Part shown: one piece after another, positions 2,904-16,965 of the stretch
Layout of the letters: every line of letters starts with the position of its first letter
How positions within the stretch are numbered: position 1 is the stretch's first letter
Source: an uncultured virus (IMG/VR IMGVR_UViG_2061766007_000275)
Taxonomy: Duplodnaviria; Heunggongvirae; Uroviricota; Caudoviricetes
Reading direction: 5' to 3' (one strand)
IMG/VR virus record: IMGVR_UViG_2061766007_000275
DNA: 20,039 nucleotides
The notes under the pieces: model-generated
The model's database searches: none
What the model was told of the DNA's origin: nothing
The model's input: the letters and a program-made list of their open reading frames with translations, nothing else
Translations under genes and position numbers: made by a program

Positions 2904-3827
2904 ATGAAAATAAAAGATATAACTGGACAGAGGTTCGGTAAATTAACTGTCCTTCAAGCAACAAACGAAAGAAAGAATAGGCAAGTTGTATGGCTTTGTA
3001 AATGCGATTGTGGCAATGAAGTTAAAGTTGTCGGTGGAAGTTTAAGAAGTGGACATACACAATCTTGTGGTTGTCAACGATCGGAAACTAAAACAGAAGA
3101 TTTAACAAATCAGCATTTTGGTAAATTAACTGTAATATCTAAATCAGATTATAAAACAAAAAATCGTAGTGTTTATTGGAATTGTCAATGTGAATGTGGC
3201 AATACTCGTATAGTTCAAGCATCTGATTTAAGAACAAATAAAATTACAGAATGCACTGAATGTACTAAAAAAAATCGTATTGCTGAAAAAGGCGGTATAG
3301 GACCTATAAAAGATTTATCCGGAAAAAGATTTGGTAAATTAATTGTCCAAAGACCTACTAAGTTAAGAGATAATAGTGGACATATTATTTGGGAATGTTT
3401 ATGTGATTGTGGTGAAACTTGTTATATTTCTTCTATTAAACTAGTAACAAATAATACAATGTCTTGTGGTTGTTTAAGACGCACTTCTCATTCTTTAGGA
3501 GAAACTAAAATTGCTCAAATTTTATCAGATAATAAAATTGAATATATTCCTCAGTATAGTTTTGATGATTGTAAAAGTCCTAAAAATAGTTTATTACGAT
3601 TTGATTTTGCCTTGATAAAAGACAATAAAGTAATTAAATTGATTGAATATGATGGAGAACAACATTTCCAACCTTATGACTTTTTCGGTGGAGAAGAAGG
3701 ATTTTTGTATTTAAAAGAAAAAGACAATATAAAAAATGAATATTGTAAACAACACAATATTCCATTATTAAGAATTTCTTATTTAGAATTAAAGGATATA
3801 ACTTTGGAGAAAATATTAAATGGATAA
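2904..3827 (+). CDS. Free-standing putative homing endonuclease: three Cys-rich repeats plus Vsr/DUF559-like nuclease domain
   Basis: Three D(I/L)xxxxFGKLxV...WxCxC(D/E)CG...Cx(1-2)C repeats; C-terminal RFDF...LIEYDGEQHF...KNEYCKQHNIPLLRI. RBS AAGGAG; the stop overlaps the primase start. Confidence 0.8.
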   Translation: MKIKDITGQRFGKLTVLQATNERKNRQVVWLCKCDCGNEVKVVGGSLRSGHTQSCGCQRSETKTEDLTNQHFGKLTVISKSDYKTKNRSVYWNCQCECGNTRIVQASDLRTNKITECTECTKKNRIAEKGGIGPIKDLSGKRFGKLIVQRPTKLRDNSGHIIWECLCDCGETCYISSIKLVTNNTMSCGCLRRTSHSLGETKIAQILSDNKIEYIPQYSFDDCKSPKNSLLRFDFALIKDNKVIKLIEYDGEQHFQPYDFFGGEEGFLYLKEKDNIKNEYCKQHNIPLLRISYLELKDITLEKILNG

Positions 3828-8024: not shown

Positions 8025-8810
8025 ATGAGTAAACTAATTGATTTAACTGGACAAGATTTTGGTTTTTGGCATGTAATTGAAAGAGCTGAAAATACTAAAG
8101 AAGGTAGAGCGCAATGGTTATGTTTATGTACAAAATGTGGAAAAACTATTAAACCAGTTCAAGGCGCTCATTTAAGGAGTGGTAGAAGCACTGCTTGCAC
8201 TAATTGTAGACAGAAAAAGATGGTAGCAGCTACAATTAAAGATGAAACTGGAAAAACGTATGGATTTTTGAAAGTTATAAGACAAGCCACCGAAGAAGAA
8301 AAACCTAGACATGATAGAACCGGAATTTATTGGAATTGTACTTGTACTAAATGTGGTAGAGAAAATGTAATTGTATTTGGAGATTATTTAAGAAAAGGAG
8401 AAACACAAAGTTGTGGATGTATATCTAGTATCAATGAAAGTAAAATATGTCAAATGCTTGATAATATGAATATTAAATATAAACAGCAACAAAGTTTTGA
8501 TGATTTAAAATCAAAACAAAGTAACTCTTATAATAACAATTTATTTTTTGATATTGGAGTATATAATGAAGATATATTAATTTATTTAATAGAGTATGAT
8601 GGTATTCAACATTTTGAAAAAGGGCATTTTTATGATAGTTATACTAGAACCCATCCCAATGATTTATTAAAAAATGAGTATTGTTTTAAACATAATATAC
8701 CTTTAATTCGTATACCTTTTAATGTAGAATATACTCCAAATGATTTAAAACTTGAAACTACACGATTTTTATTAACAAAAGAAAAAGAAGAACAATATTA
8801 CGCAATTTAA
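8025..8810 (+). CDS. Free-standing putative homing endonuclease: two Cys-rich repeats plus Vsr/DUF559-like domain
   Basis: Repeats IDLTGQDFG...WLCLCTKCG...CTNC and KDETGKTYG...WNCTCTKCG...SCGC; C-terminal FFDI...LIEYDGIQHF...KNEYCFKHNIPLIRIP. Confidence 0.8.
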   Translation: MSKLIDLTGQDFGFWHVIERAENTKEGRAQWLCLCTKCGKTIKPVQGAHLRSGRSTACTNCRQKKMVAATIKDETGKTYGFLKVIRQATEEEKPRHDRTGIYWNCTCTKCGRENVIVFGDYLRKGETQSCGCISSINESKICQMLDNMNIKYKQQQSFDDLKSKQSNSYNNNLFFDIGVYNEDILIYLIEYDGIQHFEKGHFYDSYTRTHPNDLLKNEYCFKHNIPLIRIPFNVEYTPNDLKLETTRFLLTKEKEEQYYAI

Positions 8811-8817
8811 AAAAACT

Positions 8818-8852
8818 TGCGGAAGCTAGATGGCTTCCGCATTTGACTTTTT
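8818..8852 (+). terminator. Intrinsic terminator
   Basis: 9-bp stem TGCGGAAGC (8818-8826) / GCTTCCGCA (8833-8841), followed by TTTGACTTTTT. Confidence 0.75.
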
Positions 8853-8871
8853 ATAAAAATTTTGTTATAAT
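8843..8871 (+). promoter_or_regulatory. SigA/sigma70-type promoter of the dnaE locus
   Basis: TTGACT (8843-8848), 17-nt spacer, TG-n-TATAAT (8866-8871); RBS AAGGAG at 8891-8896. Confidence 0.85.
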
Positions 8872-8903
8872 ATATATAGAAAAATGAAAAAAGGAGAAAA
8901 AAG

Positions 8904-8972
8904 ATGTTAAGGTTTGAAACTCACTCACATACACATTATAGCAATATTAGGACAAAATTATTAAAAACATAG
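8904..8972 (+). pseudogene. Detached original 5' end of dnaE (22-aa mini-ORF, first strand of the PHP domain)
   Basis: Translates to MLRFETHSHTHYSNIRTKLLKT*. HxHTxYS is the PHP N-terminal metal-binding motif, and SNIR matches the start of the DnaE body at 10032. It has its own promoter and RBS. Missed by the ORF track. Confidence 0.85.
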
Positions 8973-8994
8973 ATTTAAAATTTTATATATTATA
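8950..8994 (+). promoter_or_regulatory. Putative phage-specific promoter motif (copy 3)
   Basis: GGACAA at 8950 and TATAT at 8984 (34-nt offset); begins exactly where similarity to dnaE stops. Confidence 0.6.
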
Positions 8995-9008
8995 GAAAAT
9001 ATAATATA

Positions 9009-9086
9009 NNNNNNNNNNNNNNNNNNNNNNNNNNNNNNNNNNNNNNNNNNNNNNNNNNNNNNNNNNNNNNNNNNNNNNNNNNNNNN
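9009..9086. other. Assembly gap (78 N)
   Basis: Run of n; should contain the RBS and start codon of the third endonuclease. Confidence 0.99.
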
Positions 9087-9974
9087 GGACAAAAAATTAA
9101 TCATTTAACTTTTTTAAAATTTTTAGGTAATAGTTATTGGGAATGTCAATGTGATTGTGGTAATATTATTAAAATTAGAAAAGATCAAGTTACACGTTCT
9201 CGATATCCTAAAAAAGATTGTGGTTGCGGGTTGCCTTCTCGTTTAGGTAGTAAATTAAAAGATGAAACTGGAAATAGATATGGGAAATTAATAGTTTTAT
9301 ATCGAACTAATGATTTAAGACCTGGTGAAGCTAGATGGCATTGTAAATGTGATTGTGGCAATGAATGTGATGTATCTGGTGTTCATTTAAGAAATGGTTC
9401 TGTTCAATCTTGTGGTTGTTTAAGATACGAAAGTCATAATGGAATAGATGAAACTGGAAAAAGATATGGAAAATTATTAGTTTTATATCGAACAGATAAA
9501 AATATTAAGTCAGATGGCACTCATATTTTTTGGCATTGTAAATGTGATTGCGGCAATGAATGTGATGTTAATGGTAGCTATTTAAGGCAAGGCATTTCAA
9601 CTAATTGTGGATGTGAACGAAGTGTTGGAGAGTTGAAAATTAAAAAGATATTGGATGAGAATAAAATTTTATATCAAAGAGAATATAATTTTCCTGATTT
9701 ATTAGGTGTTGGAGGTGGCAAACTAAGATTTGATTTTGGAATTTTAGATCAAAATAATAATCTTTTGTATTTAATAGAATATGATGGTATTCAACATTTT
9801 AAATTAAATTGTTTTGGAAATGAACAAGAATATTTTAATACATTAAAGCAACATGATAAATTAAAAGATGACTATTGTAAAGAGCATAATATACCATTGA
9901 TAAGAATTCCTTATACAAAATTTAAAACTCTAACAATAAAAGATCTTTTATTAAATAAAGGAGGTGACGATTAA
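9087..9974 (+). CDS. Putative homing endonuclease: at least three Cys-rich repeats plus Vsr/DUF559-like domain; true start lies in the gap
   Basis: The frame of track ORF 9231..9974 is open back to the gap: GQKINHLTFLKFLGNSYWECQCDCGNIIKIRKDQVTRSRYPKKDCGC. C-terminal RFDF...LIEYDGIQHF...KDDYCKEHNIPLIRIP. Confidence 0.82.
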   Translation, partial: GQKINHLTFLKFLGNSYWECQCDCGNIIKIRKDQVTRSRYPKKDCGCGLPSRLGSKLKDETGNRYGKLIVLYRTNDLRPGEARWHCKCDCGNECDVSGVHLRNGSVQSCGCLRYESHNGIDETGKRYGKLLVLYRTDKNIKSDGTHIFWHCKCDCGNECDVNGSYLRQGISTNCGCERSVGELKIKKILDENKILYQREYNFPDLLGVGGGKLRFDFGILDQNNNLLYLIEYDGIQHFKLNCFGNEQEYFNTLKQHDKLKDDYCKEHNIPLIRIPYTKFKTLTIKDLLLNKGGDD

Positions 9975-9979
9975 AAATA

Positions 9980-12900
9980 ATGGGAACTAAAAGATTTGAA
10001 GTACATGCACACACCCATTATTCTTAGTGTGTCAAATATTAGATTGTTAGATTGTATCAACAAACCTAAAGATTTAATTAATAGAGCGGTTGAGTTAGGT
10101 TTAGCAGGAATTGCCCTAACCGACCATGAGTGCCTAGCTGGGCATCCTGAAGTAAATATATATTATAATGATGTGATAAAGAAAGAACATCCTGATTTTA
10201 AAGTTGCATTAGGAAATGAAATTTATTTATGTCCTAATCGTGATAAGGATCAAAGTTTTTATCATTTTATTTTAATAGCAAAAAATAAGACAGGTCATCG
10301 AGCATTACGTGAGCTGTCTTCTACTGCGTGGTTAAATATCTTTGAAACAAAAAGAATGGAAAGAGTTGTCACAACATATGACGATCTCAATAAAATAGTT
10401 AAAAAGTATCCGGGTTCATTAATAGCAACCACCGCATGTATTGGTGGAGAAGTGTCAAAGCAAACATTAGCTCTCATTTCGGCGGAAAAGGCAGGTGACA
10501 CGCGCGCACAGGAAGCCGCCCGCTATGATATAGGAACTTTTATTGAAAGATGTCAGGATTGGTTTGGTGATGACTTTTATATTGAGTGTGCTCCGGGAAT
10601 GAGTCCAGAACAGCAGGCAGTAAATAAAAGATTGGTTAGTATTGCAAACTGTTTTGACATTAAAATGGTAATAGGAACTGACGCACATTATTTAAAGAAA
10701 GAAGATAGATATGTTCATAAGGCATATCTTAAGTCAAAAGAAGGAGAAAGAGAAGTAGATAAGTTTTATGAATTCTCTTATCTTCAGTCAGAAGAAGATA
10801 TATTGACAAATCTCAATATTAAAGATAAGTATGAAGAATTATGTAATAATAGTATGGAGATTTGGAATAAGATAGAAGTTTGGGATATGCGGCATCCGCA
10901 ACAGATCCCAAAAGTTGAAGTAGAAGATTTTCCTAAGCCAGTATATGATCAAGATGATGTAAAAACTATATCTACTCCAATTAAACCACTTAAAATGGTT
11001 TTTAATACTTTTGAAAAAACTTATCCAACATTATGGAGTATGAGATGCTCAGATGATAAGGTTGAAAGATGTTGGGTAAATAAATGTTTAAACAAGCTAA
11101 AAGAAATAAATAAATATAATGAAACTTATTTATCTCGTCTTGAGGAAGAAGCAAGAGTAAAGAAAATTATAGGCGAAAAGCTTCAAACAAATATGTTCTC
11201 ATATCCTTTAACACTTCAACATTATTGTGATTTGTTTTGGAAGTGCGGAAGTATCGTTGGTGCGGGCAGAGGTTCATCGTGTTCAGGACTTAATCATTAT
11301 TTATTAGGAATAACTCAGCTTGATCCTATTGAATGGGAACTTCCATTTTGGAGATATCTGAATGAAGAAAGAACTGAATTAGGTGATATTGACTTAGACT
11401 TATGCCCAAGCAAGCGTCCGCTGATATTAAATGAGATAAAGAAAGAAAGAGGAAAAAACTTCATTCCGGAAATTGATGATAGCGCAGCCCGCAGTAACTT
11501 AGGTTGTACACTGATTGCAACTTTTGGCACAGAAAGTACAAGGTCTGCGATTCTAACAGCCTGCCGCGGTTATAGAAGTGAAGAATGCCCTCAAGGTATA
11601 GATACAGATATAGCAAAGTATTTATCTTCACTTATCCCCGAAGAAAGAGGATTTGTTTGGAGTATAGATGATATTATAAATGGTAATGAAGAGAAAGGCC
11701 GTAAGCCGTTAACATCATTCATACAAGAAGTTGAGCAGTATCCGGGATTGTTAACAATCATTCAGGGTATTGATGGTCTAGTAAATAAGAGATCAAGTCA
11801 CGCATCAGGTGTTATCTTGTTTGATGAAGATCCTTTTGAGTTTGGTTGTTTTATGAGAACTCCTAATTGGGAAATCATCACACAGTATGATTTACATATG
11901 GATGAAGCTTGTGGCTTAACGAAATATGACTTTCTTGTAACTGAAATTCAAGATAAAATTGCAATCACGATTAATCTTCTACAAAAGCATGGGGAAATTG
12001 AACAAGATTTAAGCTTAAGAGAAATTTATGACAAGTATCTCAATCCGAATGTTCTTCCAATAGAAGATATGAAGTATTGGAAAAGATTTTATAATATGGA
12101 TGTGATTAATGTCTTCCAGTTTGATTCACCGGTTGGTAAACAAGCAGCAAAAAAGATTAAACCTATCTCAATATTAGAGTTAGCAGATGCAAATGGTTTG
12201 ATGCGATTAATGACTGCGGAAAAAGGTGAAATAACTCCAATGGATAAGTATGTTATGTTTAAAAATAACATTGAGTTATGGTATAATGAAATGAGAGAAT
12301 ATGGGTTAACAAAAGAAGAAATGGAAGTTGTTAAGCCTTACTTCTTAAAGTCACATGGAGTACCTCCAAGCCAAGAGCAAATGATGAAGATGTTAATGGA
12401 TCCAGATATATGTGGGTTCACGCTCGCGGAAGCTAATACCGCACGTAAGATAGTTGGTAAGAAGCAGATGAACAAGATTCCCGCATTAAGAGATAAGGTA
12501 TTAGAACAAGCAAAGTCTCCATGTCTTGGACATTATATTTGGAAGTGCGGTATTGGTCCTCAGATGGGTTATTCATTCTCTATCATTCATGCTCTTGCAT
12601 ATTCGTTCATTGGTTTCCAAACAGTTTATCTTGCAACAAATTGGGATCCGATTTATTGGGATACAGCTTGTCTAATAGTTAATAGTTGTTCAACTGATGA
12701 AGAAGATGAAGATGATGATATAATAGATGTTGAGGAAGATGAGAAAGAAGAACAGATTGAAGAAGAGGAAGTAGTTGAAGTTAGTGCAAAGAAGAAAACG
12801 AAGACAGTTGATTATGGTAAGAATGCAAAGGCATTAGGTGAAATTATCTCGAACAACATTAAAGTCTCACTAATTGATATTAATAAGTCAAGTCTTCAGT

Positions 12901-14054
12901 TTGAACCTGATGTAGAGGATCAGCAGATATTATTTGGATTTAGAGCATTAACAGGTGTTAATGTTGATATAATAAAAGAAATAGTAGCAAAACGTCCGTT
13001 CGTAAGTCTTACAGATTTTATGAATAGATGCAAAATAAAAAAGCCAGCAATGATCTCATTGATTAAGGCGGGAGCTTTTGATAATCTTGAGGAAGAAGTA
13101 AATCTTGCGAAGGTTCTTGGTGTCGAACCACGTATTGCCGCAATGATGTTATATATTTGGAGAGTAAGTGAGCCAAAGACAAACATTAATCTTCAGAGTT
13201 TTAATGGTTTATTAGAGAAAGATTTAGTTCCGAAAGAAGATTTGGACTTTGAAATAAGAGTATTTCACTTCAACAAAGCAATGAAGTATTTTAAAAAAAA
13301 TGTTGAAGGAACTCCAGTTTATTATTTTGGTCAAGATAATATGTATGATTTTTATGCAAAATATTTTGATTTAGATCAAATCATTCAAGTAAATAATTAT
13401 TTTGGTGTACCTCAAAAATATTGGGATAAGGTTTATACTAAAACAATGGATAAAGCAAGAGATTGGTTAAAAGATAATAAACAAGCAGTTTTAAATGCAA
13501 TAAATTATATGAACTTCAAAGAACTTTGGGATAAATATGCAAATGGTACAGTAGCAAGTTGGGAAATAGATAGTCTTGGATTCTATTATCATGAACATGA
13601 TTTAGCAAAAGTAAATATGTCAAAATATGGCATAGTTGATTATCAGACTCTTCCTGAGACACCAGAAGTTGACTATTACTTCACAAAAGGTAAGTTAAGC
13701 ATCCCGATCTTTAAGACAAGTATTATAATTGGAACAGTAATAGCAAAAGATGATAAGAGATCAACAGTATCTATCTTAACAACAAGTGGAGTTGTTGATG
13801 TTAAGTTCTCAAAAGAGTACTATGCAAATTATAAAAGACAAATCTCTGAAGTCGGAGCAGATGGTAAAAAGAAAGTTATTGAAAAAGGTTGGTTTAGAAG
13901 GGGAGTTCAGATTATGGTAACTGGCTTCCGCAGAGAAGATACTTTTGTTGCGAAGTCATATAGCAAGACAGCAACACATCAACTTTATAAAATAACTGAA
14001 GTAGATGATAATGGAAATATATGTTTAGTACACGATAGGAGTAAAACTGCATGA
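9980..14054 (+). CDS. dnaE: DNA polymerase III alpha (DnaE) with a stop and frame break at 10022-10031
   Basis: 9980-10027 encodes MGTKRFEVHAHTHYS*. The body resumes in the +1 frame at 10032 (SNIRLLDCINKP). PHP motifs TDHE, GNEIY, TACIGG, TDAHY; polymerase motifs GRGS, GDIDLD, HASGV, KYDFL; C-terminal OB-like region. The track start at 9996 lacks the HxH motif. Confidence 0.93.
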
Positions 14055-14656
14055 TAACTAAGAAAAAATATCAAGTAATTGCATTATATGGCGCGAGTGG
14101 GTCAGGAAAGGACACTATCCTTAAGTGGATAGTGTCCCACTACCCCAAGATTAATTTAATAGTTAGTTGTACGACCAGACCACCGCGGGAAGGCGAGATT
14201 GATGGCGTTGACTACCATTTCATAAATGAAAAAAAGTTTACAGAACAAGTAATGAATGGTGAGATGCTTGAAGCTACAGAATTTAGAGGTTGGTTCTACG
14301 GAACCCAGGTCTCCGCATTATCTGAAGATACAGTTAATATTGGAGTCTTCAATCCCGCAGGTTTAATGGCTCTTGAAGAAAATTCTGAAATAGAATTATT
14401 AAAAATTTTTATAAATGCTTCAGATAAAACAAGAATGTTGAGATGTCTGAATAGAGAAAAAGATCCTAATGTGGATGAAATTGTTCGTAGATATCAGACA
14501 GATAAAAGAGATTTGAAGGAATACTTTGCAGAGACAGATATAATGGATAGAGGTTATTTTATTGATAATAATAATCTAGATTTAGATCATTTAAGTGTAA
14601 CAACATTTGAAAACATCTTAGACGATTGGGCAACTTTATTTAAATTACTTCGTTAA
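14051..14656 (+). CDS. gmk: Guanylate kinase-like nucleotide kinase
   Basis: P-loop GASGSGKD, TTRPPREGEIDGVDYHF, FYGT. Confidence 0.9.
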   Translation: MITKKKYQVIALYGASGSGKDTILKWIVSHYPKINLIVSCTTRPPREGEIDGVDYHFINEKKFTEQVMNGEMLEATEFRGWFYGTQVSALSEDTVNIGVFNPAGLMALEENSEIELLKIFINASDKTRMLRCLNREKDPNVDEIVRRYQTDKRDLKEYFAETDIMDRGYFIDNNNLDLDHLSVTTFENILDDWATLFKLLR

Positions 14657-14672
14657 TTTTTTATATAATATG
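14628..14672 (+). promoter_or_regulatory. Putative phage-specific promoter motif (copy 4), upstream of nrdD
   Basis: GGGCAA at 14628 and TATATAAT at 14662 (34-nt offset); RBS AGGAGG at about 14704-14709. Confidence 0.6.
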
Positions 14673-14715
14673 TTACAATAAAATCCTTAAAATAATAATA
14701 CTTAGGAGGTAGACA

Positions 14716-16965
14716 ATGATTGAAAAAAGAGATGGGCGTAAAGTTCCATACGCTCCAAACAAAATTAAAGAAGCAGTATTAAAAGCCTTTATGGCAGTAG
14801 ACAAAAAAGTAACACCTTATGCTTTAGAAAAAGCAGATAACATTGCAGATTATGTAACTAATATTTACAATGAAAAATTAAAATTTGGTGCAAATCTTAC
14901 TGTCGAGGAAACACAAGATTTAGTTGAGCATGGTCTTATGGCATGTAAGAGAAAAGATGTAGCAAGAGCTTACATCACTTACAGAAATCAAAGAACCGCA
15001 GAGCGTGAGCGTAAGAATAAGACAATGCAAATTGCTAAAAATAATTTAACAAAAGGTAATGATGATAAACAGAATGCTAATGTAGATGCTCATTCCTTTG
15101 GCGGTAGAGTCGGAGAGGCGATTTCCGCAGTAACAAAGCAAATTGCTTTAGATGAATATGTTAGTCCAACAGCTAGATATAATCATTTACATAACATTGT
15201 TTATATTCATGATCTCGATGCTTATGTAGTTGGTTCACATAATTGTTTGACTATTCCTTTTGATGACTTATTAGCCAATGGGTTTAATACAAGACAAACA
15301 GATGTTCGTCCTGCAAACTCAATTAATACTGCATTCCAATTAGTAGCTGTAATCTTCCAGTTACAGAGCTTACAGCAGTTCGGAGGCGTTTCCGCAAGTC
15401 ACTTAGATTGGACAATGGTGCCTTATGTAAGAAAAAGTTTTAGAAAACATTATATTGATGGTCTTAAATATATTGAAAGACCCCTTACTTATAGTAAAGA
15501 ATTAGAAGAACATATTCCAGTAGATGCTGGCATTGAAGATGCAGAATATTTTGCTTTCCCAAGAGCATATATGTATGCAAAAGATATGACTCAGAGAGAA
15601 ACACAACAAGCAGTTGAAGGTATGTATCATAACTTAAATACATTACAGAGTAGATCTGGAAATCAATTACCTTTTACCAGTATCAATTATGGTACTTGTA
15701 CCTTACCTGAAGGTAGAATGGTAATTAAGGCTTTATTAGAAGGAAGTCTTAAAGGTGTTGGTAAATTCCATAGAACATCAATCTTCCCTTGTGGCATTTT
15801 TCAATTAGGCAAGGGCATCAATAGAAAACCTGGCGATCCTAATTACGATTTATTTAGATTGGCTCTTAAATCAACAGCACAGAGAATTTATCCTAACTAT
15901 GCAAACATTGATTGGAGCGGCAATACTGGATATGATAAGAATGATCCTAAGACATATTTTAGTACAATGGGATGTAGAACAGCTAATGGCTGGGATATTA
16001 ATGGATTAGGACAGCAGAAAGATGGTCGTGGGAATATTTGTCCTGTAACTATTATTCTTCCAACAGTCGCTATGTTAGCTCAGGAAGAAGTTATGGAATC
16101 GAATGGAGATCCAACCGAAGAAAAAATCGTGAACAAATTTATGGAATTACTTGATCATTATATTCATGATGCAAAAGATTCATTAATTGATAGATTTGAG
16201 TGGATTTGCTGCCAGAGCCCAGCTTCCGCGAAATTTATGTATGAAAATCATACAATGGCTGGTTATGATGGAAAAGATATACGTTCTGCTCTTAAACATG
16301 GAACTTTAGCTGTTGGCCAGTTAGGTTTAGCAGAATGCTTACAGATCTTAATTGGTTGTGACCATACCGAACCAAAAGGTATGGAATTAGCTAAAAAAAT
16401 TGAAGAATTGTTTAAGAAAAGATGTGCAGAATTTAAAGAAGAATATAAATTAAATTTTGGTGTTTATTATACGCCTGCAGAGAATTTATGCTTTACCGCA
16501 ATGAAAAAGTTCCAAGAAACTTATGGAGTAATACCTAATGTATCAGATAGAAAATACTTTACTAACTCAATGCATGTACCGGTATGGAAAAAAATGTCAG
16601 CTTTTGATAAGATTGATATTGAATCTCAGTTAACTCCTTATAGTTCAGCAGGCTGTATTACTTACGTTGAGTTAGATAGTTCAACGAAGAATAATATTGA
16701 TGCTCTTGAACAGATGGTTAATTACGCCATGGATAAGGATATTCCTTATTTCGCATTAAACACTTGTCCTGATACTTGTCTTGATTGCGGCTATACTGAT
16801 GAAATGGGAGATACTTGTCCGGTATGCGGAAGCCACAATATTCAGAGACTTAGAAGGGTAACAGGCTATTTAACTGGTAATTACACAACAGCATTCAATG
16901 AAGGTAAACAACAAGAAACAGAACAGAGAGTTAAACACACGGGTATAGAATATGAGATATGCTAA
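14716..16965 (+). CDS. nrdD: Anaerobic class III ribonucleotide reductase, large subunit
   Basis: N-terminal ATP cone (IEKRDGRKV...YITYR), HDLD..HNC, MGCRT, YFTNS, CLDC/CPVC Zn site, glycyl-radical motif RVTGYL. Confidence 0.96.
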   Translation: MIEKRDGRKVPYAPNKIKEAVLKAFMAVDKKVTPYALEKADNIADYVTNIYNEKLKFGANLTVEETQDLVEHGLMACKRKDVARAYITYRNQRTAERERKNKTMQIAKNNLTKGNDDKQNANVDAHSFGGRVGEAISAVTKQIALDEYVSPTARYNHLHNIVYIHDLDAYVVGSHNCLTIPFDDLLANGFNTRQTDVRPANSINTAFQLVAVIFQLQSLQQFGGVSASHLDWTMVPYVRKSFRKHYIDGLKYIERPLTYSKELEEHIPVDAGIEDAEYFAFPRAYMYAKDMTQRETQQAVEGMYHNLNTLQSRSGNQLPFTSINYGTCTLPEGRMVIKALLEGSLKGVGKFHRTSIFPCGIFQLGKGINRKPGDPNYDLFRLALKSTAQRIYPNYANIDWSGNTGYDKNDPKTYFSTMGCRTANGWDINGLGQQKDGRGNICPVTIILPTVAMLAQEEVMESNGDPTEEKIVNKFMELLDHYIHDAKDSLIDRFEWICCQSPASAKFMYENHTMAGYDGKDIRSALKHGTLAVGQLGLAECLQILIGCDHTEPKGMELAKKIEELFKKRCAEFKEEYKLNFGVYYTPAENLCFTAMKKFQETYGVIPNVSDRKYFTNSMHVPVWKKMSAFDKIDIESQLTPYSSAGCITYVELDSSTKNNIDALEQMVNYAMDKDIPYFALNTCPDTCLDCGYTDEMGDTCPVCGSHNIQRLRRVTGYLTGNYTTAFNEGKQQETEQRVKHTGIEYEIC

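What the first reader, a model, noticed from the sequence alone, without database searches (positions are those of the whole stretch)
9980..10046. dnaE broken by a 10-nt insert (TCT-TAG-T-GTG-TCA): candidate ribosomal bypass or stop-restart split polymerase
Seen: ATG 9980 reads MGTKRFEVHAHTHYS and stops at TAG 10025-10027. The polymerase body continues in the +1 frame at TCA 10032 (SNIRLLDC). Removing exactly 10 nt restores HTHYSNIRLLD, the same spacing as the upstream copy at 8904. Three details suggest the insert is organised rather than random. First, Ser codon UCU, then a stop, then Ser codon UCA is take-off/stop/landing geometry. Second, TAG-T-GTG is also a stop followed by an in-frame GTG start. 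Third, ACACAC (10009-10014) can pair with GTGTGT (10027-10032) around the stop. None of the 18 main CDSs here ends in TAG (14 TAA, 4 TGA). Established: HxH supplies PHP metal ligands; the T4 gene 60 bypass gap travels with the adjacent MobA endonuclease and protects against it; phage Aeh1 nrdA works as a gene split by mobE. Inference: the insert destroys the neighbouring endonuclease's target, and DnaE is rebuilt either by a 10-nt hop or from a 15-aa peptide plus a GTG-restarted body.
Basis: partly seen in the sequence, partly recalled or inferred. Interest (0 to 1): 0.92.

Follow-up and report, generated by a model that had tools for sequence, protein, structure and literature searches.

The report
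Short ribosome-hop gap in phage dnaE
The DNA polymerase gene of this uncultured cattle-gut phage is really broken after 15 codons by a stop codon plus seven bases brought in by a selfish nuclease gene, and many related phages keep the same design behind a co-varying RNA hairpin, so ribosomes most likely hop over the gap, a reading trick proven so far only for phage T4 gene 60.

Summary
A mini-ORF (9980-10027, MGTKRFEVHAHTHYS-TAG) is separated by TGTG from the intact 1340-codon dnaE body (TCA 10032, +1 frame).

It is the 3' end of a mobile cassette: native dnaE start stub (8904-8972), a Vsr-like homing endonuclease (to 9974), a new SD and start, then a copy of the PHP HxH strand.

I found 11 gap types on 26 other contigs. 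All have TCY followed directly by a stop. The distance to the Asn codon is 5, 6, 7, 8 or 10 nt, covering all three frames. The triplet before Asn is TCN in 7 of 11 types and one substitution from TCY in the other 4.

A 9-10 bp co-varying hairpin ends at the take-off codon only in gapped alleles: at least 9 bp in 11 of 19 gapped, 0 of 61 intact.

The take-off Ser is TCY in 12 of 12 gapped alleles found without codon bias, against 4 of 73 intact.

Gapped dnaE is the only polymerase found in four relatives' genomes.

Best reading: a programmed 10-nt Ser-to-Ser stop-hop (about 0.55). Rivals are restart with a split protein, a +1 shift, and a truncated enzyme. Nothing has been tested at the bench.

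This scan has already noted the same design in other phage polymerase genes. I found no published description.

The parts
8025..8810 (+). HEG-1, a free-standing Vsr-like homing-endonuclease paralog upstream of the native dnaE promoter
   Evidence: PHROG 374/559/9084 at E 3e-24 to 2e-17. It is 40% identical to HEG-2. HEG-1-like genes sit directly upstream of gapped dnaE in L183 and L197.
8819..8903 (+). Native dnaE upstream region: terminator-like hairpin GCGGAAGC/GCTTCCGC (8819-8840), TTGACT (8843-8848), TATAAT (8866-8871) and SD AAAGGAG (8890-8896)
   Evidence: Read. The region is nearly identical to the sequence upstream of the intact dnaE of L003.
8904..8972 (+). Left stub: native dnaE codons 1-16 (MLRFETHSHTHYSNIR, to 8951), then 6 cassette codons and TAG
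   Evidence: Homologous stubs occur in L004, L029, L109 and L111.
8952..9974 (+). Cassette left part and HEG-2. The ORF is readable from 9087; its start is hidden by the N run 9009-9086. Stop TAA is at 9972-9974.
   Evidence: PHROG 374 at E 9e-41. The model has pLDDT 83. Residues 175-293 match Vsr 1cw0_A (Z 10.3, rmsd 2.5, 105 aligned) and I-Bth0305I 3r3p_B (Z 10.0, rmsd 3.0, 92 aligned).
9960..9968 (+). Shine-Dalgarno GGAGGTGAC of the mini-ORF
   Evidence: Strong SDs are seen in the same place in relatives.
9976..9984 (+). 5' arm of the conserved hairpin (AATAATGGG, includes ATG 9980)
   Evidence: 9 bp, -7.7 kcal/mol.
9980..10027 (+). Mini-ORF of 15 codons plus TAG. It encodes the PHP strand with HxH that the body lacks.
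   Evidence: The Pfam PHP profile matches positions 2-161 in intact L003 but only 7-161 in the window body. pS is 0.59 against pN 0.19 over 10 codons.
10014..10022 (+). 3' arm of the hairpin (CCCATTATT), ending on the first base of the take-off codon
10022..10024 (+). Proposed take-off codon TCT (Ser)
   Evidence: TCY in 12 of 12 gapped alleles found without codon bias, against 4 of 73 intact alleles.
10025..10031 (+). Gap: stop TAG plus spacer TGTG. GTG 10029-10031 is in the body frame.
   Evidence: A stop directly follows Ser in 11 of 11 types.
10032..10034 (+). Proposed landing codon TCA (Ser)
   Evidence: The triplet before AAY is TCN in 7 of 11 types.
10035..14054 (+). dnaE body (NIRLLDC... 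to TGA)
   Evidence: Pfam PHP, DNA_pol3_alpha, finger and HHH_6 domains. It is 83% identical to intact L003 DnaE.

Best explanation
This is a mobile cassette driven by a Vsr-like homing endonuclease. It sits in the first codons of the phage's replicative polymerase gene. Like the MobA/gene 60 element of T4, it carries its own copy of the disrupted coding stretch followed by a short untranslatable gap.

Proposed reading path:
- Ribosomes start at ATG 9980 and make MGTKRFEVHAHTHYS.
- They pause with peptidyl-tRNA-Ser on UCU 10022-10024 and UAG in the A site.
- The mRNA then slides 10 nt and the tRNA re-pairs with UCA 10032-10034.
- Decoding resumes at AAU 10035, giving one DnaE chain with the normal ...HTHYSNIRLLDC sequence.

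The hairpin 9976-9984/10014-10022 is unwound by the ribosome at that moment. It is proposed to refold behind the ribosome and bias movement forward. At the DNA level, the gap is inferred to break the endonuclease's target so the cassette does not cut itself.

Shown here: the anatomy, its recurrence, purifying selection on the mini-ORF, hairpin covariation, gap-specific codon choice and mobility. Inferred: the hop itself, its efficiency, the hairpin's role and the immunity function.
For: 1. The insert is real and is kept in a strain about 6% diverged from another study.

2. There are 11 gap types on 26 other contigs, all with TCY plus a stop. The distance to the Asn codon is 5, 6, 7, 8 or 10 nt, so all three frames occur. 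No single frameshift fits this; a hop does.

3. The triplet before AAY is TCN in 7 of 11 types. In the other 4 it is ACC, ACT, GCT or TTT, each one substitution from TCY. In L208, L183 and L204 both TCT codons are unchanged while the stop plus spacer differ (TAAC, TGAA, TAGG).

4. The mini-ORF peptide is under purifying selection, with H, H, Y and S invariant (pS 0.59, pN 0.19). It supplies PHP profile positions 2-6, which the body lacks.

5. In intact genes Ser is always followed directly by Asn (73 of 73). The HxH-to-Ser spacing is fixed in 72 of 73. An exact join is therefore expected to matter.

6. Hairpin: contiguous Watson-Crick stems of at least 9 bp occur in 11 of 19 gapped sequences and 0 of 61 intact ones; stems of at least 7 bp in 14 of 19 against 4 of 61. 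The 3' arm ends 0 to 3 nt from the take-off codon. Compensatory changes are present: at pair -4, A-T 7, C-G 6, G-C 3; at pair -6, G-C 9, C-G 7.

7. The take-off codon is TCY in 12 of 12 gapped alleles found without codon bias, against 4 of 73 intact alleles (TCA 27, AGT 18, AGC 15, TCG 9, TCT 4).

8. Two in-frame forms are stop-hop motifs. TCT TAG TCT occurs in L004 and L192; L192's genome is estimated 100% complete and none of its 8 tRNA genes that were found has a CUA anticodon. TCT TAA ACT occurs in L260.

9. In four relatives' genomes, two of them estimated 100% complete, the gapped dnaE is the only Pfam-detectable DNA polymerase. All 22 bodies checked are open for about 330 codons apart from recoded stops.

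10. Mobility: gapped L112 and intact L256 differ at 1 of about 290 nt from the AAT codon onward, but are diverged or unrelated 5' of it. The gap label needs at least 14 changes on a 97-row DnaE tree (quick tree). The HEG lies within 500 nt upstream in 5 of 5 gapped against 3 of 75 intact loci.

11. Precedents read in papers:
- MobA element architecture (10.1101/2022.08.31.505936, sections 6 and 12).
- Synthetic stop-hops with matched codons flanking a stop, with no natural case known (PMC5009743, passages).
- An upstream refolding hairpin next to the E site stimulates forward shifting at a stop in a 70S system (PMC6321510, abstract and passages).
Against: - There is no protein, RNA or ribosome data for any member.
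- Landing UCA differs from take-off UCU at the wobble base. Four of 11 types have no Ser landing codon.
- The window, L320 and the TGATG type have an in-frame GTG or ATG exactly where a restart would begin. In the TGATG type the 'stop' is TGA in phages that read TGA as Trp, so no true stop follows Ser there.
- The window's hairpin alone is modest: -7.7 kcal/mol, z -1.9, with 10 of 200 shuffles as good. It is weak in the L193/L197/L201 group (5 bp).
- At take-off, the 3' arm lies inside the ribosome, so how it acts over a 5-10 nt slide is conjecture.
- No 3' structure is enriched in gapped alleles.
- Known stop-hops in E. coli are inefficient (my recollection).
- Hairpin, TCY and gap travel on one mobile module, so part of their association could be shared descent. 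Sequences found by the pattern are ascertainment-biased for F, H, H, Y and TCY.
Confidence: 0.55

Rival explanations
1. Termination and restart give a split enzyme. Ribosomes release the 15-residue peptide at TAG and reinitiate at GTG 10029, one base later. The peptide then docks non-covalently as the first PHP strand of the body.
For: TAG-T-GTG in the window, TAGTG in L320 and TGATG in L030 and L196 are classic coupling arrangements. Purifying selection on the peptide also fits a trans-acting piece. Genes split by endonucleases do function in phage Aeh1 nrdA (as described in 10.1101/2022.08.31.505936, section 12).
Against: Eight of 11 gap types have no ATG, GTG or TTG in the body frame at the junction. 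In L004 the next in-frame canonical start listed, ATG 4127, lies 42 codons downstream. There is no SD before the restart. In the window the native stub already encodes the same strand from a strong native start, so a trans-acting peptide would make the second copy redundant. A restart model does not predict the gap-specific hairpin or the TCY choice. A 15-residue central barrel strand supplied in trans is unprecedented, to my knowledge.
Confidence: 0.15
2. Lineage-specific simple recoding without a hop. In this window it would be a +1 shift at UCU UAG U, giving ...HYS-SVS-NIR. Elsewhere it would be +2 or -1 shifts, or stop readthrough.
For: A hairpin abutting the E site plus a stop in the A site is the condition shown to stimulate +1 shifting in a 70S system (PMC6321510, passages). 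Seven-nt gaps (+1) are the commonest class, at 5 of 11 types.
Against: It needs three different mechanisms in one family. It would insert 1-3 variable residues where 73 of 73 intact proteins have none. UCU to CUU gives no re-pairing. UAA readthrough (L260) is not known to be efficient (my recollection).
Confidence: 0.12
3. Only an N-terminally truncated DnaE is made, from GTG 10029 or ATG 10005. The mini-ORF is just a leader that delivers ribosomes, and the PHP HxH ligands are dispensable.
For: The body is intact, and start codons exist in this window.
Against: Peptide-level conservation of the mini-ORF, with many synonymous changes. There is no start codon in 8 of 11 types. In types ACC, ACT, GCT and TTT the invariant Ser exists only in the mini-ORF.
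Confidence: 0.08
4. A recent inactivating indel or an assembly error, so dnaE is a pseudogene.
For: None beyond the frame break itself.
Against: Three independently assembled contigs, one from another study, carry it. It recurs on 26 other contigs with open bodies. Gapped dnaE is the sole polymerase in four relatives' genomes.
Confidence: 0.02

Closest known systems
Phage T4 gene 60 translational bypass within the MobA homing-endonuclease element (Manning & Atkins, bioRxiv 10.1101/2022.08.31.505936, sections 6, 12 and 19 read; Bonocora 2011 as cited there)
   Same: The cassette consists of an endonuclease gene, a new start, an element-encoded copy of the disrupted coding stretch, and an untranslatable gap that begins with a stop right after the take-off codon. 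The element's 3' end lies at the landing site. The endonuclease can be lost while the gap is kept. The host gene is an essential replication gene.
   Different: The gap is 5-10 nt rather than 50. The codons are Ser UCY rather than Gly GGA. The endonuclease is Vsr-like rather than HNH MobA. The host gene is dnaE rather than topoisomerase. There is no room for a take-off stem-loop or an SD inside the gap. A conserved, co-varying 5' hairpin is present here, whereas the T4 5' stem-loop is not conserved (section 19). The nascent chain is only 12-21 residues. The protein is restarted rather than split.
Synthetic 'stop-hops' in E. coli, in which matched codons flank a stop (as described in the Atkins 2016 review, PMC5009743, passages read)
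   Same: TCT TAG TCT (L004, L192) is exactly this motif. The window's version is the same with 4 extra bases.
   Different: Those were engineered and of low efficiency (efficiency from my recollection). The review states that no natural occurrence was known. Here the motif is natural, conserved and accompanied by a hairpin.
Upstream refolding hairpin, or an internal SD next to the E site, stimulating +1 frameshifting at CUU UGA (prfB-type site) in 70S ribosomes (PMC6321510, abstract and passages read)
   Same: [quoted passage not shown]
   Different: That is a 1-nt shift with re-pairing on an overlapping codon. Here the new codon does not overlap and the distance varies.
Vsr-like / EDxHD homing endonucleases (I-Bth0305I; 'fractured genes', Dassa 2009, PMC2677866, passages read)
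   Same: The catalytic-domain fold matches (Z 10.0 to 3r3p_B). The endonuclease is free-standing inside essential replication genes of uncultured phages, dnaE included.
   Different: Fractured genes are rejoined by split inteins. Here there is no intein and the N-terminal piece is 15 residues.
Phage Aeh1 nrdA split by MobE (genes in pieces), as described in 10.1101/2022.08.31.505936, section 12
   Same: An endonuclease insertion inside an essential gene supplies a stop and a new start.
   Different: There the two sizeable polypeptides assemble. Here the cassette re-supplies the whole N-terminus and adds a gap.
Byp elements of Magnusiomyces capitatus mitochondria (PMC5009743, passage read)
   Same: Many short inserts are bypassed by ribosomes.
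   Different: Those inserts are longer (about 27-55 nt, from my recollection). According to the review they are context-independent and rely on relaxed mitochondrial decoding.

Membership tests
Programmed translational bypass of the gene 60 / MobA kind | Stop or slow-to-decode codon directly 3' of the take-off codon | tested here: met
   TAG 10025 follows TCT. A stop follows TCY in 11 of 11 gap types. Caveat: it is TGA in two TGA=Trp phages.
Programmed translational bypass of the gene 60 / MobA kind | Landing codon matching the take-off codon, directly 5' of the resume codon | tested here: inconclusive
   The window has UCU to UCA: the same amino acid, with 2 of 3 bases matching. There is an exact TCT/TCT match in 5 of the 7 types that have two Ser codons. 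Four of 11 types have ACC, ACT, GCT or TTT.
Programmed translational bypass of the gene 60 / MobA kind | Take-off stem-loop and SD-like element inside a roughly 50-nt gap | tested here: not met
   The gap is 7 nt between the two codons. No 3' structure is enriched relative to intact genes (Mann-Whitney p 0.63).
Programmed translational bypass of the gene 60 / MobA kind | Element made of an endonuclease, an element-encoded homologous region and a gap, ending at the landing site | tested here: met
   L112 against L256; the window against L003; endonuclease association 5 of 5 against 3 of 75.
Programmed translational bypass of the gene 60 / MobA kind | One polypeptide made from the two ORFs; nascent-peptide signal | not testable with these tools
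   No proteomic or ribosome data. No RNA run was listed.
Programmed translational bypass of the gene 60 / MobA kind | Homology to the MobA (HNH) element of T4-like phages | tested here: not met
   The endonuclease fold is Vsr-like PD-(D/E)XK. The host gene is dnaE.
Vsr-like / EDxHD homing endonucleases (I-Bth0305I) | Vsr-like PD-(D/E)XK catalytic-domain fold | tested here: met
   1cw0_A Z 10.3 (rmsd 2.5, 105 aligned) and 3r3p_B Z 10.0 (rmsd 3.0, 92 of 98 aligned) for model residues 175-293. The sequence-only PDB search found nothing. Pfam gave only weak DUF2726 and DUF5889 hits.
Vsr-like / EDxHD homing endonucleases (I-Bth0305I) | Conserved acidic and His catalytic residues | tested here: inconclusive
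   D216, E231, H237, D257 and K260 are invariant and D233 nearly so in 22 homologs. They were not mapped residue by residue onto I-Bth0305I.
Vsr-like / EDxHD homing endonucleases (I-Bth0305I) | Cleaves the element-free allele and spares its own | not testable with these tools
   Only presence/absence polymorphism between near-identical alleles was seen.
Group I intron carrying an endonuclease ORF | Conserved ribozyme core flanking the ORF | tested here: not met
   No Rfam match at gathering or at E up to 10 in 8700-10300. Only 5 nt separate the HEG-2 stop from ATG 9980. Bases 9009-9086 are masked and could not be read.
Split-intein 'fractured gene' | Intein halves at the ends of the two gene pieces | tested here: not met
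   The N piece is 15 residues. Pfam finds only PHP and polymerase domains in the body.
Stop-codon reassignment (TAG=Gln or TGA=Trp phages) | In-frame recoded stops at conserved residues that restore one open frame | tested here: not met
   Relatives do use such codes. In the window, reading TAG as sense leaves the frame broken, and no window gene has an in-frame stop.
DnaE-type DNA polymerase III alpha with PHP domain | PHP, pol3 alpha, finger and HhH domains | tested here: met
   Pfam E-values 3e-22, 4e-37, 5e-19 and 6e-18.

The most novel reading that the evidence does not exclude
A compact, portable bypass module makes bacterial ribosomes hop 5-10 nt efficiently. It consists of a refolding hairpin ending at a UCY codon, a stop, and a spacer of 2-7 nt. 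Vsr-like homing endonucleases spread it as their self-immunity device. Short programmed hops would then be a common, systematically mis-annotated feature of phage polymerase genes, and gene 60 would be one extreme of a broad class rather than a singular case.
Probability: 0.45. Interest if true: 0.9.

Novelty: new variant of a known kind. Interest (0 to 1): 0.8.

Why it matters
Programmed translational bypass has one bench-proven bacterial example (T4 gene 60). The 2016 review I read states that natural stop-hops were unknown.

This family offers dozens of natural variants of a minimal version, differing in gap length, frame, stop codon, landing triplet and hairpin sequence. That is a ready-made mutational series for asking what a ribosome needs in order to slide.

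It also shows how a selfish nuclease can occupy the most conserved codons of an essential gene without killing it.

For annotation, such dnaE genes are currently called as pseudogenes or as two ORFs.

Tried and rejected
- **Group I intron:** no Rfam match in the window at gathering, none in 8700-10300 at E up to 10 apart from a chance thermometer hit at 18.6 bits, and none in five relatives.
- **Assembly error:** rejected.
- **TAG reassignment as the explanation for this window:** the frame stays broken.
it folds at -6.1 kcal/mol but is absent from all other types.
- **A conserved 3' or take-off stem-loop:** folding energies of 48 nt from the Ser codon do not differ between 19 gapped and 58 intact sequences. 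A small UCUUAA/UUAAGA pairing recurs in some but was not tested further.
- **RNAalifold on alignment A2:** not run, because the 5' arms lie in different registers. Pairs were counted by script instead.
- **Expression:** no RNA holder listed. Run X19, labelled metatranscriptomic but probably DNA, holds only a diverged relative from 10047 onward.
- **Identifying the phage:** megablast against cultured phages found no match. The best protein match is about 38%, to Bacillus SPbeta-like yorL. The window's contig is not in viral contigs. No whole genome is held, so tRNAs and code use of this phage beyond the window could not be examined; there is no tRNA in the window.
- **HEG annotation by sequence:** no PDB sequence hit. 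Foldseek gave only weak rows. The fold was identified by VIA-align.
- **Per-sequence shuffle test of the hairpin:** significant for most sequences but not all (the window 6 of 500; L183, L109 and L193 not significant).
- **Complex prediction for the split-protein rival:** not run, because a pass would not discriminate.
- **Literature:** six searches (the last was badly framed) found no description of short bypass gaps in phage dnaE.
- **Earlier scan notes naming cultured Gordonia and mycobacteriophage cases:** not checked here.
Full report
**What is in the window**

Bases 8700-10400 hold, in order:
- The end of an endonuclease-like gene (HEG-1, 8025-8810).
- A terminator-like hairpin, a sigma-70-like promoter and an SD.
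- ATG 8904, reading MLRFETHSHTHYSNIR and then TKLLKT-TAG (8970-8972).
- An AT-rich spacer that runs into a masked stretch (N, 9009-9086).
- A second endonuclease ORF readable from 9087 to TAA 9972-9974 (HEG-2).
- A strong SD (GGAGGTGAC, 9960-9968).
- ATG 9980, reading MGTKRFEVHAHTHYS, then TAG 10025-10027, TGTG, and TCA 10032 AAT ATT AGA TTG..., which stays open to TGA 14054.

The long ORF is a DnaE-type polymerase with PHP, pol3-alpha, finger and HhH domains. Its PHP match starts at profile position 7. The intact homolog L003 matches from position 2. The missing positions are what the mini-ORF encodes.

**It is not an artefact**

The window comes from a bovine gut metagenome.
- Logan contigs of two runs of the probable source sample reproduce 9100-10730 and 9940-10161 without any difference.
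- A 1539-nt contig from a different study, about 94% identical, spans 9768-11092 with substitutions only and no indel before 10949.
- These are contigs, so rare variants cannot be seen.

**It is a mobile cassette**

- The sequence upstream of the stub is almost identical to the sequence upstream of the intact dnaE of L003, whose DnaE is 83% identical. The stub is therefore the native gene start.
- HEG-2 matches phage endonuclease families (PHROG 374, 559, 9084).
- Its modelled C-terminal domain (pLDDT 83) superposes on Vsr (Z 10.3) and on the homing endonuclease I-Bth0305I (Z 10.0). This is the Vsr-like family of Dassa 2009 (PMC2677866, passages read).
- L004 has the same stub, endonuclease and mini-ORF layout, as do L029 and L109.
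- L111 has the stub and endonuclease but an uninterrupted second copy (MSYFNNHSHTEFSNLRLLDC). This shows what the second copy is for: it re-supplies the N-terminus.
- Gapped L112 and intact L256 differ at 1 of about 290 nt from the Asn codon onward. They are only about 77% alike in the mini-ORF and unrelated further upstream. The module therefore ends exactly at the gap. The MobA element likewise ends at or shortly after its landing codon (10.1101/2022.08.31.505936, section 6).
- On a quick DnaE tree of 97 rows, the 19 gapped rows need at least 14 gains or losses, 11 of them forced by well-supported branches. The window is sister to intact L003. The careful tree search did not finish.
- In an unbiased sample of the 80 best dnaE loci in viral contigs, 5 are gapped and 75 intact (73 by script, 2 by eye). 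The endonuclease lies within 500 nt upstream in 5 of 5 gapped against 3 of 75 intact. L266 and L267 are near-duplicates.
- Six gapped contigs found by DNA pattern have no endonuclease within 1.6 kb (L192, L193, L201, L196, L204, L207). The gap therefore outlives the nuclease, as in gene 60 relatives.

**The gap family**

Sources searched:

| Search | Kept or examined |
|---|---|
| HEG-2 protein, viral contigs | 80 of 507 |
| DNA pattern | 21 hits, 2 unrelated GC-rich ones dropped |
| dnaE profile, viral contigs | 80 |
| dnaE profile, genomes | top 22 of 80 examined; 2 gapped |

Junctions after TAY:

| Junction | Loci |
|---|---|
| TCT TAG TGTG TCA AAT | window |
| TCT TAG TG TCT AAC | L320 |
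| TCT TAG TCT AAT | L004, L192 |
| TCT TAA ACT AAT | L260 |
| TCY TAA CC AAY | L029, L109, L209, L193, L197, L201 and duplicates |
| TCC TGA TG TCT/TCA AAT | L030, L196 |
| TCT TAA ATTT AAT | L032, L112 |
| TCT TAG TGCT AAT | L199 |
| TCT TAA C TCT AAT | L090, L324 |
| TCT TGA A TCT AAT | L183 |
| TCT TAG G TCT AAT | L204 |

That makes 11 types on 26 other contigs.
- TCY plus a stop is always present.
- The number of bases between Ser and Asn is 5, 6, 7, 8 or 10.
- The triplet before Asn is TCN in 7 types. In the other 4 it is one substitution from TCY.
- A canonical start codon in the body frame is present in 3 types only.

All bodies are open. In four relatives' genomes, two of them estimated complete, the gapped dnaE is the only polymerase detectable with the Pfam family A, family B and pol3-alpha profiles.

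**Selection on the mini-ORF**

- Over the 10 codons F..S of 15 gapped sequences, pS is 0.59 and pN 0.19. F, H, H, Y and S are invariant.
- Sequences were selected for those residues. The nine found through the endonuclease or dnaE show the same pattern.
- In intact genes Ser is followed directly by Asn in 73 of 73. The spacing from HxH is fixed in 72 of 73.

**A gap-specific hairpin**

- The last 9-10 nt before the take-off codon, including its first base, pair with a stretch near the mini-ORF start. In the window these are 10014-10022 and 9976-9984 (9 bp, -7.7 kcal/mol).
- Contiguous Watson-Crick stems of at least 9 bp occur in 11 of 19 gapped and 0 of 61 distinct intact 5' ends. Stems of at least 7 bp occur in 14 of 19 against 4 of 61.
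- The 5' arm is the start-codon region where the 3' arm encodes Thr-His-Tyr (ATG pairs with CAT). Where the 3' arm encodes Thr-Glu-Tyr, the 5' arm lies a few codons further into the mini-ORF. The position of the 3' arm is therefore the conserved feature.
- Compensatory pairs are plentiful.
- The hairpin is weak in the L193 group (5 bp plus a bulged extension). L111, the cassette without a gap, shows no comparable stem.

**Codon choice**

- The Ser codon before the stop is TCT or TCC in 12 of 12 gapped alleles found without using that codon.
- Intact genes use TCA 27, AGT 18, AGC 15, TCG 9, TCT 4 and TCC 0.

**Genetic codes**

- Relatives vary. TGA reads as Trp in L030, L196 and L009. TAG reads as Gln in L032, L112, L111 and L001.
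- No TAG=Gln phage uses TAG at the gap.
- The TGATG type sits in TGA=Trp phages, which weakens the 'stop' rule there.
- L192's estimated-complete genome has an in-frame TAG at the gap. None of its 8 tRNA genes that were found has a CUA anticodon; it does have tRNA-Ser(UGA).

**Reading**

A Ser-to-Ser hop explains every type with one mechanism and yields the invariant ...YSN... sequence. The stop, the near-matched triplets, the hairpin abutting the shift site and the nuclease cassette all have experimental precedents (PMC5009743; PMC6321510; 10.1101/2022.08.31.505936).

Restart with a split protein fits the three types that have start codons, including this window, and cannot be excluded for them. 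Simple +1 shifting would add SVS in a length-invariant loop.

I put the hop at about 0.55. A covalent join by some recoding event (the hop plus the +1-shift rival) comes to about 0.67.

**Prior notes of this scan**

After I had found the hairpin, a look-up showed earlier AI notes describing the same design: a short leader, a co-varying hairpin, a stop and a 2-11 nt gap beside a nuclease gene. They concern other phage polymerase genes, including dnaE PHP motifs of soil and lake phages. I did not test those loci; they are leads, not support.

I found no paper describing this.

Noticed in passing
window 2904-3827, 8025-8810, 9087-9974: The 20-kb window holds three paralogous Vsr-like endonuclease genes, 37-40% identical to each other. 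Each has three CxCxC..CGC zinc-ribbon-like repeats before the nuclease domain.
   Followed up: partly
window 9009-9086: A run of N hides the start of HEG-2 and part of the spacer after the stub. Nothing could be said about this stretch.
   Followed up: no
L030, L196, L009 (TGA); L032, L112, L111, L001, L029, L109 (TAG): Close relatives of this phage use different genetic codes (TGA=Trp or TAG=Gln). In L029 and L032 the endonuclease ORF carries 2-7 recoded TAGs, while the first 775-824 dnaE codons carry none. This could delay nuclease expression until the code switch.
   Followed up: partly
L004 5260-6013 and 6864-7839: The dnaE of L004 has two further insertions. The first is GC-rich, looks structured and holds a small ORF (intron-like). 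The second holds a 247-aa ORF. Rfam finds nothing at the gathering score.
   Followed up: partly
L290 2491-2779 and L301 1250-1321 (genome G001, the phage of L208): A 178-kb gapped-dnaE phage encodes its own tmRNA (tag AKNNYRPVLMAA) and a tRNA with a CUA anticodon, in a cluster of tRNA genes that includes tRNA-Ser(UGA) and tRNA-Ser(GCU).
   Followed up: no
G005:C1:106760-108547 (the phage of L197): The pol3-alpha domain is matched in two pieces about 1 kb apart within one open frame of 1598 aa. This suggests an in-frame insertion such as an intein in that dnaE.
   Followed up: no
L324, L183, L320, L194, L260 junctions: In several types the take-off codon plus stop (UCUUAA or UCUUAG) can pair with the downstream UUAAGA or CUAAGA of the Leu/Ile-Arg codons, enclosing the landing codon in a small loop. 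Overall folding energy is not enriched compared with intact genes.
   Followed up: partly
L078, L089, L160, L162, L249, L282: Endonuclease genes of the same family sit directly upstream of uninterrupted dnaE genes with no gap and no hairpin. How those alleles escape cleavage is open.
   Followed up: no
window 14051-16965: Directly after dnaE come a guanylate-kinase-like gene that overlaps the dnaE stop, and an anaerobic ribonucleotide reductase (NrdD) with an ATP-cone. This fits a phage of an anaerobic host.
   Followed up: no
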